Shown: one piece after another, positions 15,221 to 44,890 of the stretch | How the letters are laid out: each line of letters begins with the position of its first letter | Position numbering within the stretch: the first letter of the stretch is position 1 | Assembly (NCBI GenBank): GCA_951406725.2 | Contig: OX597827.1 | Location: 23,436,001-23,500,000 of the forward strand | Reading direction: 5' to 3' | Source of the DNA: Octopus vulgaris | Taxonomy: Eukaryota | DNA: 64,000 nt | Made by a program: the position numbers and the translations under genes | The notes under the pieces: model-generated | What the model was told of the DNA's origin: nothing | The model's input: the letters and a program-made list of their open reading frames with translations, nothing else | Database searches by the model: none

Positions 15221-15873
15221 AGGTGCAGGCATGGATGCTTGGTAAGAGGCTTGCTTCCCAACCACATGGTTCCGGGTTTAGTCCCACTGCGTGGCACCTG
15301 GGGCGAGTGTCTTCTACTATAGCCTCGGGCCGACCAAACCCTTGTAAATGGATTTCGTAGAGGGAAACTAAAAGAAGCCCATCGTATATATATTCTCCAC
15401 GATTGATCGCTAGCCACTAAAATATTTTTCTATTTTCTACCCCTGTTTATTTTTGTGTTCCTTTCTGTTGAAGAGCGTAGGCTCGAAACGTAAAAGACTT
15501 AAATTAATACATATGTTTGTTGTTTACACACCCGTCTTCGTTGTTTTGTAAATTCTCACAATATACATATATATATATATATATATATATATATATATAT
15601 ATATATATATATATATATATATGTATGTATGTATGTATGTATGTATATGTATGTATGTATGTATATGTATGTATGTATGTATGTGATTGTGTCTCTGTAT
15701 TTGTCCCACTATCATGGCTTGACAACCGGTGTTGGTGTGTTTATGTTCCCGTAAAGAGACCAGTAGAATGAGTTCTAGGCTTACAAAGAATACGTCTTGG
15801 AGTCGATTTGTTCGACTAAAGGTGGTGCTCCAGCTTGGCCGCAGTCAAGTGACTGAAACAAATAAAAGAATAA
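15221..15873 (+). mobile_element. SINE family A copy interrupted in its internal (TA)n by an HHR-bearing insert (~15393-15562)
   Basis: The head runs 15221-15385 and the 3' half resumes at ~15685 after the microsatellite. Confidence 0.82.
15461..15500 (+). ncRNA. Hammerhead-like motif, CUGUUGA-core family, copy 1
   Basis: Reads CTTT-CTGTTGA-a-GAGC gtag GCTC-GAAA-CG-TA^AAAG. The 40-mer is identical at 34302-34341 (-) and 44851-44890 (+). Confidence 0.7.
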
Positions 15874-15879
15874 ATGATT

Positions 15880-16272
15880 TCAAACTTTGGCACAATGCCA
15901 GCAATTTCGGTGGAAGGAATAAGTCGAATGTATCTACCCCAGTACTCAACTGGTACTTGTTTTATCGACCCCGAAAGAATGAAAGGCAAAGTCGACCTCG
16001 GCGGAATTTGAACTCAGAACGTAACCGCAGACGAAATACCTATTTCTTTACTACCCACAAGGGGCTAAACATAGAGGGAACAAACAAGGACAGACATAGG
16101 CATTAAGTCGATTACATCGACCCCAGTGCGTAACTGGTACTTAATTTATCGACCCCGAAAGGGTGAAAGGCAAAGTCGACCTCGGCGGAATTTGAACTCA
16201 GAACGTAGCGGCAGACGAAATACGGCTACGCATTTCGCCCGGCGTGCTAACGTTTCTGCCAGATCGCGCCTT
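15880..16272 (-). mobile_element. SINE family B with one extra internal ~185-bp unit
   Basis: Head at 16272, then one unit, then core and tail ending at ~15880. Confidence 0.85.
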
Positions 16273-16304
16273 AATAATAATAATAATAATAATAATAATA
16301 ATAA

Positions 16305-16425
16305 TATGGTTGTGATGCATGTGCCTGGTGTACCTTTATCAGACAGGTAGTCATGATGGGTATATTGGGCTTCGTATATTTTTCCCCAGTGTCACTTTGA
16401 TGGCATGCACTGCTCTCTCACTCAA
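16305..16425 (+). mobile_element. Truncated copy of the (TAA)n-embedded family D repeat
   Basis: Matches the last ~120 bp of 46228-46784 and is flanked by (TAA)n. Confidence 0.8.
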
Positions 16426-16449
16426 TAATAATAATAATAATAATAATAA

Positions 16450-16663
16450 TCCTTTCTACTTTAGGTGCAAGGCCTGAAATTTTGTGGGAGGTGGGGCAGT
16501 CGATTAGATCGACTCTAGTACGCAACTGGTACTTAATTTATCGACCCAGAAAGGATGAAATGTAAATCGACCTCGGTGGAATTTGAACTCAGAACGTGGC
16601 GGCAGGCGAAATACAACTAAGCATTTCGCCTGCCGTGCAAACGATTCTGTCAGCTCGCCACTT
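16450..16663 (-). mobile_element. SINE family B copy
   Basis: Reverse complement of the family B consensus. Confidence 0.85.
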
Positions 16664-16721
16664 TAATAATAATAATAATAATAATAATAATAATAATAAT
16701 AATAATAATAATGATAATGAT

Positions 16722-41180: not shown

Positions 41181-41435
41181 TCATATGACACATGTATGTA
41201 TGCATACATGTATGTATGTATGTATGCATATATGTATGTAAGTATGTATGTATGTATGTTTGCATTTATGTATGTTTGCATTTATGTATGTATGCATATA
41301 TGTATGTATGTATGTATGTATGTATGTATGTATGTATGTATGTATGTATGTATGTATGTATGCATTTATGTGTATATGCATGCATGTATCTATGTGTATC
41401 TGTGTGTGTTTTGACTCAATATTTAGACGCTATGT

Positions 41436-42020
41436 AAGGCGGCGAGCTGACAGAAACGTTAGCACACCGGCCGAAATGCTTAGCAGTATTTCATCAGCGG
41501 CTACGTTCTGAGTTAAAATTCCGGCGAGGTCGACTTTGCCTTTCATCCTTTCGGGGTCGATAAATTAAGTACCAGTTACGCACTGGGGTCGATGTAATCG
41601 ACTTAATCCGTTTGTCTGTCCTTGTTTGTCCTCTCTATGTTTAGCCCCTTGTGGGTAGTAAAGAAATAGATACTTCGCCTGCTGTTACGTTCTGAGTTCG
41701 AATTCCGCCGACGTCAACTTTACCTTTATCCTTTCGGGGTCGATTAAATAAGTACCAGTTGCGCACTGAGGTCGATATAATCGACTTAATCCGTTTGTCT
41801 GTCCTTGTTTGTCCCCTCTGTGTTTAGCCCCTTGTGGGTAGTAAAGAAATAGGTATTTCATCTGTCTTTACTAACGTTCTGAGTTCAAATGCCGCCAGGG
41901 TCGATTTTATGTTTCATCCTTTCGTGGTCGATATATTAAGCACCAGTTGTATACTGGGGTCGATCTAATCGACTACCCCCATTCCCCCAAAATTTCGGGC
42001 CTTGTGCCTCGAGTAGAAAT
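41436..42020 (+). mobile_element. SINE family B trimer (head + 2 internal units + core/tail)
   Basis: Units restart at ~41486, ~41670 and ~41854. The last unit carries the monomer tail CCCCCAAAATTTCGGGCCTTGTGCC. Confidence 0.88.
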
Positions 42021-42172
42021 GAAATGTATTTCGAGATGCACTATTCCAAGAAAACTTATACATACATGTGTGTGTGTGTGTGTGTGTGTAATGTGTGCGT
42101 GCGTGCGTGTGTGAGTGTGTGTGTGCGCATATTCCCAGCAAATAATGTTTCAAATGTTCTTTTCTGTTACAG

Positions 42173-42345
42173 GTAAAGAAGTAGTGGAATATATAGCTGA
42201 GTACCTGTCCAATATCCGCTCCCGAAGAGTGCTTCCGGACGTGAAACCTGGCTACATGAGGAAGTTGGTGCCTGAAAATGCTCCAGAAAAAGGCGAAAAA
42301 TGGGAAAACATATTTTCCGACATCGAGCGAGTAATTATGCCAGGA
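42173..42345 (+). CDS. HDC: Internal coding exon (173 bp, phase 1 to phase 0) of a group II PLP-dependent amino-acid decarboxylase, most likely histidine decarboxylase
   Basis: Acceptor tttctgttacAG, donor GTAAGT. Encodes (G)KEVVEYIAEYLSNIRSRRVLPDVKPGYMRKLVPENAPEKGEKWENIFSDIERVIMPG. GYMR and IFxDIER resemble Hdc more than Ddc/Tdc. As I recall, human HDC also has an intron within this Gly codon and a second exon ending at IMPG. Family assignment is near certain; the HDC paralogue call is less so. Confidence 0.8.
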
Positions 42346-42461
42346 GTAAGTATTAATTAGAAGGATTTACATTTTGGTTATATTTTATCATTTACTGCGC
42401 GCTCGCGCACCCCTCAGAAGCACATGCACATAAAATGCATACATACGTATATATATATAAA

Positions 42462-43639
42462 TCTCTTATTATAAAAGGCAGATTTTATCTGCCTCCCTTT
42501 GTAAGTTATAGAAATCTACAATATAGGATTTCTTCAATTACAATTTACCTAGCATTTTTAAGAGTAGAATGCATCGGGTCATGCCAGGTCCAGTTTTTAA
42601 AATTTAAACTCCAATTAAGCAAAATTTACAGAAAACTCACATTCTGGTGTGTATGTCAAATGCTTTTCTTAGTCTGGTTTACAGCACACGCAAACGCACA
42701 CACACAGTGTGCAACGAATAAAGTGAAACTAGATGTAATATTTGTTTCTGTCTATCACGCTGATAGATACATGAGTAAAATGTATGGGAAGCTAACAGAT
42801 AAGAGTGAGTGAAAATGTTCTTGGAAGAGAGTAAATTAGCGACAGAGTGATTTGAGCAAGACTAAACTGAAAGTATGAAACAGTGTTTATGTATAAACAG
42901 ACGACACTTATATAAACCCTTTCGTTACCAAACCGCCCGAATTTACCTATTCATATTTAAATGAGAATATCATAGTAAATCTCTTTAGTACATTCGTGAA
43001 AACACGTATTATACTTCGTAAACACTTCAAATACAGTTTTGTACAAAAATCGAAGTGTAATTTTAATTCCGTGAATTATGGGAGATTTTTTTCCGAAATT
43101 TGTTCCTATTGTGTTTTCAAAAATTGTAATTCTGACAAAAAATGGATACGAATTTCATTATATCAAGCAGCGAGTCAGAATTCGAAGGATTTTCTACTGA
43201 AGACCTTCATAAATCTAACTCTATGACTGAAAAAAAAAAAGCATCTTTATATAAGAGTGAAGTTGTGTGTCTGTCCCCTTCGATTTAGATTCGTAACTAC
43301 TCCCACATTTTGCGGTGCAGTTTAACCAAAAGCGGGTATCTTATAGTCGTGATTCATATCGAGCCCTTCTGGGTATTAGCGCGCGTCTACGATGAGTCTA
43401 CGATTTAAAAAAATTTACCATCATATTTTTCCATTTTAATGCATTTTTTTCGCTTTTATATAAGGGAAGTAACTCTCTAAAAATATCTACGATGTGTCAA
43501 CGATTTAAAAAAAAAAAATTTACCTTAATTTTTTTCAATTTTTAATGCATTTTTTTGCTATTTTTTGGCTATAACTCTCTAAAAATGCTTATATAGTTAT
43601 TTCCCTTACAACCCGAGCAACGCCGGGCGATACTGCTAG
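42462..43639 (+). mobile_element. Composite non-autonomous Helitron (two 5' ends, one 3' end)
   Basis: A^TC starts at 42462 (TCTCTTATTATAAAA) and 43244 (TCTTTATATAA). 3' hairpin CCCGaGCaacGCCGGG is followed by CTAG^T at 43636-43640. Confidence 0.75.
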
Positions 43640-44850
43640 TACATATATATATATATGCATACACATATATACACACATATATGTATATGCATATGCATCT
43701 TTACATACATACATACATATATATATATATATATATATATATATATATATATATATATATATATATATATATATATATATATATATATATATATATATAT
43801 ATAAAGTTAATCCAAACAAGAAAACACAAAAAAAACACAACAAGGCGAGGACGTGGAACAAATATAGTATTATTGGACGTTCAGGAAAGAAGAGTGTGTG
43901 TGTGTGTGTATGTATGCATGTCTATATGTATATATACAAATATATATACATATATATATGTATATATATATGCTTATATATATGTATATATGTATGTATG
44001 TGTGTGTATGTGTGTGTATACATTTACATATACTGACATACATATGCATATCCAGTTTCTAATTTTACTCTATTTTATCTAAGGGCTGGCCATGCTGGAA
44101 TTTCGTTGTTGATGAGTTCATTTATTACAATTCATTTCATTTTCACAACCACTTTCCATGCTTGATTTTTGTAAGATAATTAGTTGCACAACGCCATCTT
44201 TGTTTGTGTTTCTAATCGTGCAAAAGGTTCGTCTGGTATCCCGGATAAAACTTTACCCAAATGTTCTTTATACGCATTCACATCTATGTCTCGTAGATCT
44301 CTGATTGGGGTTTGGTAAAGTACTGAAAAGCTTTGAGTCCTTCAATCCTAAACTGTAACAGTATTAGGTCTCTATTGTATATGGAGAGGGATAGACCTAC
44401 CTTTGGAACTCTACTGTCGATTACAGAACCGGGGCCGCTTTAGTTTTCGGTTTCAAAGTTATGCGATGACCCCGCTGGATCTTTCACGTCTTCGCTTCAC
44501 AGAATAGAGCTTCAGTTCTATTTTTACTTGCTCCAGTCCCTCAACTGTTGCACTGAGACAATCTTAGTGTAGCAGCGTTGAATTGCTTTCAGATGTGGTG
44601 TTGGAGAACTCATTAGACCTATGTGTGTGTGTGTGTGAGTAAATTTAAACAATGCGTTCGTAGAAAGTTGATGAGCAATGCTACTGAAAGAACACTAACT
44701 GAAATATGCCTATACACTCATTACCTGCATTTTTTATCTTCGGTCGCATTGTTTACATAGACGTATCCGTATACGAAACATGCTAACTTTCAGTGCTGGC
44801 TCTGAACTCTGAGGAAATATACCTAAATATATATATATTTTCTCTTATTC

Positions 44851-44890
44851 CTTTCTGTTGAAGAGCGTAGGCTCGAAACGTAAAAGACTT
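44851..44890 (+). ncRNA. Hammerhead-like motif, CUGUUGA-core family, copy 3
   Basis: Identical 40-mer in a ~140-bp island (44839-44978) flanked by TA repeats. Confidence 0.7.

What the first reader, a model, noticed from the sequence alone, without database searches (positions are those of the whole stretch)
15461..44890. 40-nt core identical in three dispersed copies while flanks diverge: an HHR with a non-canonical CUGUUGA (A6U) core
Seen: CTTTCTGTTGAAGAGCGTAGGCTCGAAACGTAAAAGACTT is 40/40 identical at 15461 (+), 34302 (-) and 44851 (+), while the rest of each ~150-bp island is visibly diverged. It folds as stem I CUUU/AAAG, core CUGUUGA plus an extra A, stem II GAGC/GCUC, GAAA, palindromic ACGU stem III (dimer only) and GUA cleavage. 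A6 is normally near-invariant in HHRs. Fixed A6U plus local hyper-conservation points to selection on a variant ribozyme or another RNA/DNA signal. A related island lacking the core lies at ~43805-43890.
Basis: partly seen in the sequence, partly recalled or inferred. Interest (0 to 1): 0.8.

Follow-up and report, generated by a model that had tools for sequence, protein, structure and literature searches.

The report
Penelope hammerhead with altered core letter
The three identical 40-base stretches are copies of a small hammerhead (self-cutting RNA) motif in a very abundant repeat, likely the cut-off tail of a Penelope-type jumping gene, and most matching copies carry U at a core position that is normally A, which is predicted to slow or lock cutting but is untested.

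Summary
Observation confirmed: the 40-mer is identical at 15461 (+), 34302 (-) and 44851 (+), while flanks are about 61% alike. It matches the published minimal hammerhead of Penelope-like elements (PLEs); the extra A and the ACGU palindrome are normal, and only U6 deviates. In public runs under four species labels, 6,302-15,460 contigs per run fit the island. Conservation peaks at the core but is not absolute. The most variable core sites are N7, loop L2.1 and H17 (A/U/C, no G at 2% or more), the sites a hammerhead leaves free. CpG decay also hits catalytic G12, so copies likely decay neutrally and selection acted on source elements. U6 is predicted to lock the monomer in an inactive helix (P 0.97 versus 0.09 with A6). 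The same design with A6 lies just behind PLE coding remnants in 16 of 76 other loci. No PLE ORF was linked to this family, and cleavage is untested. This scan noted A6U PLE hammerheads before, in this genome and others. Verdict: new variant of a known kind.

The parts
15440..15565 (+). Island A: likely 5'-truncated PLE 3' end (U-rich leader, hammerhead, tail with a 24-nt deletion), ending at (TA)n
   Evidence: nhmmer hit; first (TA)3 run 74 nt after position 17
15461..15500 (+). Minimal type I hammerhead, copy A: C3=15465, U6=15468, predicted cut after A17=15492
34202..34362 (-). Island B, between two (TA)n runs
   Evidence: (TA)3 run 102 nt after position 17
34302..34341 (-). Minimal hammerhead, copy B: C3=34337, U6=34334, A17=34310
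44839..44979 (+). Island C, between two (TA)n runs
   Evidence: (TA)3 run 97 nt after position 17
44851..44890 (+). Minimal hammerhead, copy C: stem I 44851-54/44883-86, C3=44855, U6=44858, N7=44859, A9.1=44862, stem II 44863-66/44871-74, G12=44875, ACGU 44878-81, A17=44882, U1.7=44889
43805..43893 (-). Island D: diverged tail-only relative without the hammerhead
   Evidence: best non-self hit; 1 of 1,000 shuffles

Best explanation
The islands are copies of a very abundant repeat that carries a minimal type I hammerhead with U at position 6, likely 5'-truncated 3' ends of a Penelope-like retroelement inserted into (TA)n, whose ribozyme is predicted to be slowed rather than dead. Shown: anatomy, abundance, core-peaked conservation, U6 as majority state, free variation at N7, L2.1 and H17. 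Inferred: (1) reverse transcription starts in the tail about 75-100 nt past the ribozyme and aborts just upstream of it, leaving short stubs; (2) every stub holds both sides of the scissile bond, so the template RNA was uncut or re-joined; (3) selection on source elements kept a cleavage-type core while flanks drifted between subfamilies, which gives the identical core with unlike flanks; (4) U6 removes A6 contacts and adds a predicted self-locking helix, so cutting would need a tandem partner and probably the element's own protein; (5) the lone genomic copies are likely inert and decay neutrally.
For: Fit to the consensus 'U-rich NNN CUGANGAH G..C GAAAN palindrome NUH' at every position but 6 (PMC4209133). 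Family profile: N7 U>C 11-16% and U>G 10-24%; H17 A>U 2-42% and A>C 1-10%, with no A>G change of 2% or more at any place in any of 4 runs; loop G>A 8-23% against 2-6% at its stem CpG partner; the three most variable of 32 core sites all fall among 7 free sites (p about 0.007, post hoc). H17 shares differ strongly between species labels while U6 stays, which suggests separate amplifications after U6 arose. A6 relatives of the same design lie 34-60 nt behind PLE RT/GIY-YIG remnants, sense, in 16 of 76 loci (11 of 63 distinct); the other 60 show no coding remnant, like the islands here. PLE hammerheads lie near the 3' end, and (TA)n is a PLE target (PMC8557442). In a purified PLE system uncut RNA is the main template and the hammerhead cuts only with the protein (PMC11167929). 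A natural A6C variant is slow but active (PMC3088659, PMC7151607).
Against: No PLE coding sequence is tied to this family: tblastn of 25 PLE proteins against the window gave nothing better than E=0.009, not at an island. No inverted core fragment lies upstream of the 3 copies, against 18 of 76 control loci. Mutations in the CUGA turn gave low activity without rescue in a full double-mutant scan (PMC9901934, passages), so U6 could be effectively dead. The G17 gap rests on few subfamily states (about 1 in 3 by chance alone). Contig depth is no copy count; 14 variant rows were hidden, among them 1-3 T>A places per run, so a minor A6 share is not excluded. The control loci share stem II by construction of my pattern, not by shown kinship.
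Confidence: 0.65

Rival explanations
1. Same PLE origin, but U6 killed catalysis and the motif is now kept as a protein-binding hairpin (the rod fold) for the RT/endonuclease.
For: The rod is the predicted minimum-energy fold: -9.4 against -7.0 kcal/mol for the open core; P(G5-C15.2)=0.97, against 0.09 with A6 in silico and at most 0.01 in 40 distinct natural A6 relatives. Hammerhead-dead mutants still insert in vitro (PMC11167929). PLE clades without canonical hammerheads thrive (PMC8557442).
Against: The rod needs U7-A14, yet N7 is among the most variable core sites (22-37% non-U), and U6C7 loses the rod as best fold. C3 and U16.1 are bulged in the rod yet have no listed variant. With 20-nt flanks the rod is the best fold in copies A and C but not in B, and no fold beats shuffles.
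Confidence: 0.2
2. The family is a short non-autonomous element (PLE-derived SINE or retrozyme monomer) of about 200 bp that borrows a PLE enzyme, not the broken end of a coding element.
For: A shared upstream consensus continues for a median 59-109 nt beyond 44836 in 199-341 contigs per run (loose ends); no ORF linked; animal retrozymes derive from pLTRs (bioRxiv 10.64898/2026.07.22.740005, part 1 of 5).
Against: 5' ends are ragged among the copies, as expected of truncation; no tandem array here (nearest same-strand copy 29.4 kb away); joints that go back were each seen in single contigs only.
Confidence: 0.1
3. The host exapted the 40-mer as a DNA or RNA regulatory signal and keeps it by selection at each locus.
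For: 40/40 identity in three copies is above the family average (p about 0.01-0.05); the core occurs in contigs of two runs guessed to be RNA (2,098 and 338 contigs).
Against: CpG sites in the core decay on both strands alike, G12 included; variation follows ribozyme rules; the window was picked for this identity; RNA status is a guess and contigs show no strand.
Confidence: 0.05

Closest known systems
Minimal hammerheads (min-HHR) in pLTRs of metazoan Penelope-like elements (Cervera and de la Pena 2014, PMC4209133; read main text parts 1-2 of 4 and supplement file 2 parts 1-2 of 3; file 1 not searchable)
   Same: Type I; short stem I; inserted base 9.1; G10.1-C11.1; no stem III, palindromic ACGU; NUH site; U-rich leader; thousands of dispersed single copies
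   Different: U at position 6; all 56 listed representatives have A6, though their descriptor required A6. Stem II is 4 bp, at the short end. No cephalopod in the list.
Stem-III-less PLE hammerhead variants that cleave as dimers (Lunse, Weinberg and Breaker 2016/17, PMC5785218; not held; only its title and a review's summary seen)
   Same: Same architecture and PLE link as summarised in PMC6765202 (passages)
   Different: Whether its alignments include U6 examples could not be checked
Natural A6C hammerhead of phage Bcep176 (PMC3088659 section 8 and passages; PMC7151607 parts 1-2 of 4)
   Same: Pyrimidine at position 6; low but real activity; preference for Mn2+
   Different: A single phage locus with C6; here U6 (about 3-4% C6) in an abundant animal repeat
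Poseidon element PAc of Anolis (PMC11167929, parts 1-2 of 4)
   Same: Genomic ends lie downstream of an intact hammerhead; AT-rich targets; protein-assisted ribozyme
   Different: Its hammerhead overlaps the ORF start; no ORF is known for this family
Hydra-1_Obim and Naiad_Obim (PMC8557442, passages and supplement part 2 of 59 plus searches)
   Same: Octopus PLEs inserting into (TA)n; Hydra hammerhead about 100 nt from the 3' end
   Different: Different sequence: none of 7 family-specific probes of 9-12 nt found in the supplement (line breaks can hide some); all 34 listed hammerhead rows have A6

Membership tests
Minimal type I hammerhead of PLEs | Core C3 U4 G5 . N7 G8 A9 ... G12 A13 A14 A15.1 ... 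U16.1 H17 with stems I and II | tested here: met
   stem I 4-5 bp, stem II 4 bp, GUA site
Minimal type I hammerhead of PLEs | A at position 6 | tested here: not met
   U in 3 of 3 copies; U majority with 2.7-3.9% C in 4 of 4 runs; A6 not among the 40 rows shown, 14 rows hidden
Minimal type I hammerhead of PLEs | Inserted base 9.1, G10.1-C11.1, palindromic 15.1-16.1 without stem III | tested here: met
   sequence against PMC4209133
Minimal type I hammerhead of PLEs | Free variation at N7 and H17 (not G), fixed catalytic bases | tested here: met
   G12 changes only at CpG-decay level
Minimal type I hammerhead of PLEs | Self-cleavage as a dimer | not testable with these tools
   bench test needed; all runs laid were contigs, which show no ends
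Penelope-like element (EN+) | RT plus GIY-YIG ORF upstream of the hammerhead | tested here: inconclusive
   none in the window; no genome held; present for A6 look-alikes in 16 of 76 loci
Penelope-like element (EN+) | Hammerhead near the 3' end, short tail, ragged 5' truncation, AT-rich or (TA)n target | tested here: met
   tails of 74, 97 and 102 nt to (TA)n; ragged 5' ends
Penelope-like element (EN+) | Partial tandem (pLTR) or inverted 5' copy | tested here: inconclusive
   0 of 3 copies with an inverted core piece upstream against 18 of 76 controls; too few copies to decide
Non-LTR retrozyme | Head-to-tail tandem units, each with a hammerhead | tested here: not met
   single dispersed copies, 10.5-29.4 kb apart; no such array at 43300-45200
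Rfam hammerhead families | Match to an Rfam model | tested here: inconclusive
   no hit on copy C, but none on a canonical A6 control either

The most novel reading that the evidence does not exclude
U6 is a selected attenuator that makes the PLE hammerhead a protein-gated switch: it locks the free RNA in a hairpin so that uncut template is available for reverse transcription, and cutting happens only when the element's RT/endonuclease or a tandem partner opens it, perhaps with a changed metal preference as in A6C. If the A6U families noted by this scan in a shark-like genome and others are real and unrelated, the change arose repeatedly and defines a large class of hammerheads that CUGANGA descriptors miss.
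Probability: 0.25. Interest if true: 0.7.

Novelty: new variant of a known kind. Interest (0 to 1): 0.42.

Why it matters
What PLE hammerheads do is an open question (PMC8557442, PMC11167929). A family that kept amplifying with a normally invariant core base changed, while its other sites still vary as cleavage allows, is a natural test of whether PLEs need fast, slow or no cutting. It also shows that descriptor-based censuses requiring A6 miss abundant families. If the motif proves dead, it is an ordinary retroelement remnant with one odd letter.

Tried and rejected
No whole genome is held, so no genome-wide BLAST or upstream extension. Rfam: whole window gave only microsatellite-driven miRNA hits among the 150 of 451 rows shown; copy C and an A6 control gave no hammerhead hit, so uninformative. 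The exact U6 core was found 0 times in metagenome contigs and 0 times in prokaryote genomes; the relaxed pattern gave 76 loci, 76 of 76 A6. A general U6 pattern in viral contigs gave 95 matches, 0 of 95 with both stems: chance. The second read-laying on the 48-nt core gave no letter table, so the T>A share at position 6 stayed open. Long ORFs next to the hammerhead in L074 and L060 are not PLE proteins. A U1.7-loop II contact could explain why the conserved block ends at ACUU (PMC11875169 passages), but the loop here is GUAG, not GNRA, and only 30 of 76 controls have U1.7: left as a guess. Nearest-neighbour energies put the double hammerhead above two monomers for every variant, A6 included, so only the relative shift (about 4 kcal/mol against U6) is used. 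Literature searches for a printed A6U hammerhead: (listings only for most hits) and supplement searches found none; Lunse et al. and Repbase/Dfam could not be seen.
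Full report
Observation. The 40-mer occurs three times, identical, at the stated coordinates, with no further copy within 3 mismatches and none in 100 shuffles. The three islands align over about 125-160 nt; outside the core the pooled identity is 0.61. Each island ends at a (TA)n run 74, 102 and 97 nt after position 17; B and C also have (TA)n just upstream. Island D (43805-43893, -) is a weak tail-only relative. 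The window is microsatellite- and SINE-rich animal DNA. That it is an octopus genome is my recall of the SINE plus earlier scan notes, not a tool result; no genome is held.

What it is. The motif matches the consensus of minimal hammerheads in Penelope-like elements: U-rich leader, short stem I, CUGANGAH, G10.1-C11.1, GAAAN, palindrome, NUH (PMC4209133). The one deviation is U6: 56 of 56 representatives in that paper and 34 of 34 rows in PMC8557442 have A6, but both lists came from descriptors that require it. A pattern leaving position 6 as A or T found 76 loci in metagenome contigs, all A6. In 16 of these 76 (11 of 63 distinct contexts) a PLE coding remnant ends 34-60 nt upstream on the same strand; the L038 remnant is a GIY-YIG domain whose longer relatives carry RT (one named from a coral). 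The other 60 show no coding remnant. So this design marks PLE 3' ends, and short stubs are the usual state. No PLE coding remnant lies near the islands in the window, so the link for this family is inferred.

Family profile. Island C is held by runs under four species labels. Laid at 80% likeness, 15,460, 15,283, 10,598 and 6,302 contigs fit. Summed depth peaks over the core at 5-34 times the 3' flank; this is no copy count and is inflated where the graph branches, but the letter table agrees. Of 40 rows shown (14 hidden), 12 lie in the 40-mer, at 10 sites; the flank has many sites with shares of 40-98%. Core variation is of two kinds. First, CpG decay, about equal on both strands at C11.1/G12 (3.2-4.0% and 3.6-5.4%) and C15.2/G16.2, which reaches the catalytic G12 and points to neutral decay after insertion. 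Second, larger changes at N7 (C 11-16%, G 10-24%), loop L2.1 (A 8-23%), H17 (U 2-42%, C 1-10%) and distal stem I G1.4 (U 2-10%). No A>G change of 2% or more is listed at any place in any run, so G17 is rare. Position 6 shows C at 2.7-3.9%. T>A occurs at 1-3 unnamed places per run, so a minor A6 share is possible; a second laying to settle this returned no letter table. The three most variable of 32 core sites all fall among the 7 that a hammerhead leaves free (p about 0.007, post hoc). H17 shares differ between labels (U17 2% against 25-42%), which suggests separate amplifications that all kept U6. Flank variants like those of copy B recur as loose-end consensus in 76-143 contigs, so the unlike flanks are likely in large part subfamily differences. 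This explains the identical core: purifying selection on source elements, not on each copy. Identity in all three copies is still somewhat lucky (0.01-0.05).

What U6 would do. A natural A6C variant cuts slowly and prefers Mn2+ (PMC3088659, PMC7151607). In a full double-mutant scan, changes in the CUGA turn gave low activity apart from the C3-G8 swap (PMC9901934, passages; per-mutant values not seen). Folding adds a second effect: U6 completes a helix U4-G16.2, G5-C15.2, U6-A15.1, U7-A14 that buries the palindrome (P 0.97; 0.09 with A6 in silico; at most 0.01 in 40 natural A6 relatives). This rod is not what selection seems to keep, since N7 varies freely while C3 and U16.1, bulged in the rod, have no listed variant. 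With flanks the rod is the best fold in 2 of 3 copies and no fold beats shuffles.

Mechanism. In a purified PLE system, reverse transcription starts downstream of the hammerhead on uncut RNA, targets are AT-rich, and the hammerhead cuts only with the protein present (PMC11167929). The islands fit this: both sides of the scissile bond are present, a tail follows, then (TA)n. I therefore read them as aborted insertions from a PLE RNA with a slow, probably protein- or dimer-dependent U6 ribozyme (0.65). Rivals: a dead ribozyme kept as a binding hairpin (0.2), a short non-autonomous element (0.1), host exaptation (0.05). The lone copies are likely inert: the nearest same-strand partner is 29.4 kb away. 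The core is in contigs of two runs guessed to be RNA, which shows neither strand nor cleavage.

Novelty. I found no printed A6U hammerhead (searches; supplements in 17, 65, 72, 74, 75), but Lunse et al. (PMC5785218) is not held and repeat databases were not available; either may hold it. The family is not Hydra-1_Obim or Naiad_Obim. PLEs are abundant in octopus (6.83% of one assembly; PMC13282606 supplement row). This scan has noted A6U PLE hammerheads before in this genome and in others, one shark-like; these notes are unchecked, and I could not test the other genomes. Verdict: new variant of a known kind, interest 0.42.

Noticed in passing
window 9796-9935 (+), with relatives at 30803-30934 (-) and 19265-19364 (-): Another repeat family with a CUGAUGA...GAAA hammerhead-like core at 9838 that fits the plain descriptor only with 3-bp stems; earlier scan notes describe re-wired hammerheads in this genome.
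   Followed up: partly
window 4181-5137 (+): Uninterrupted 318-aa Tc1/mariner-type transposase frame (Pfam HTH_Tnp_Tc3_2, DDE_3).
   Followed up: partly
window 24147-28383 (-): Broken LINE-like element with endonuclease/phosphatase and weak RT matches; Tx1-like by recall.
   Followed up: partly
window 48094-48226: Near-perfect palindrome with arms of about 55-60 bp that drives several sub-threshold Rfam miRNA hits; MITE-like or fold-back insertion.
   Followed up: no
window 15221-15390 and 34410-34560: Copies of one SINE-like family lie just upstream of islands A and B, in opposite orientation relative to the island, which suggests shared (TA)n targets rather than one composite element.
   Followed up: no
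window 43386-43586: Tandem duplication of about 100 bp at 79% identity.
   Followed up: no
L001-L076: A6 PLE family in animal-host metagenome contigs: most copies start within a few bases of the hammerhead, and 18 of 76 have an inverted piece of the core directly upstream.
   Followed up: partly
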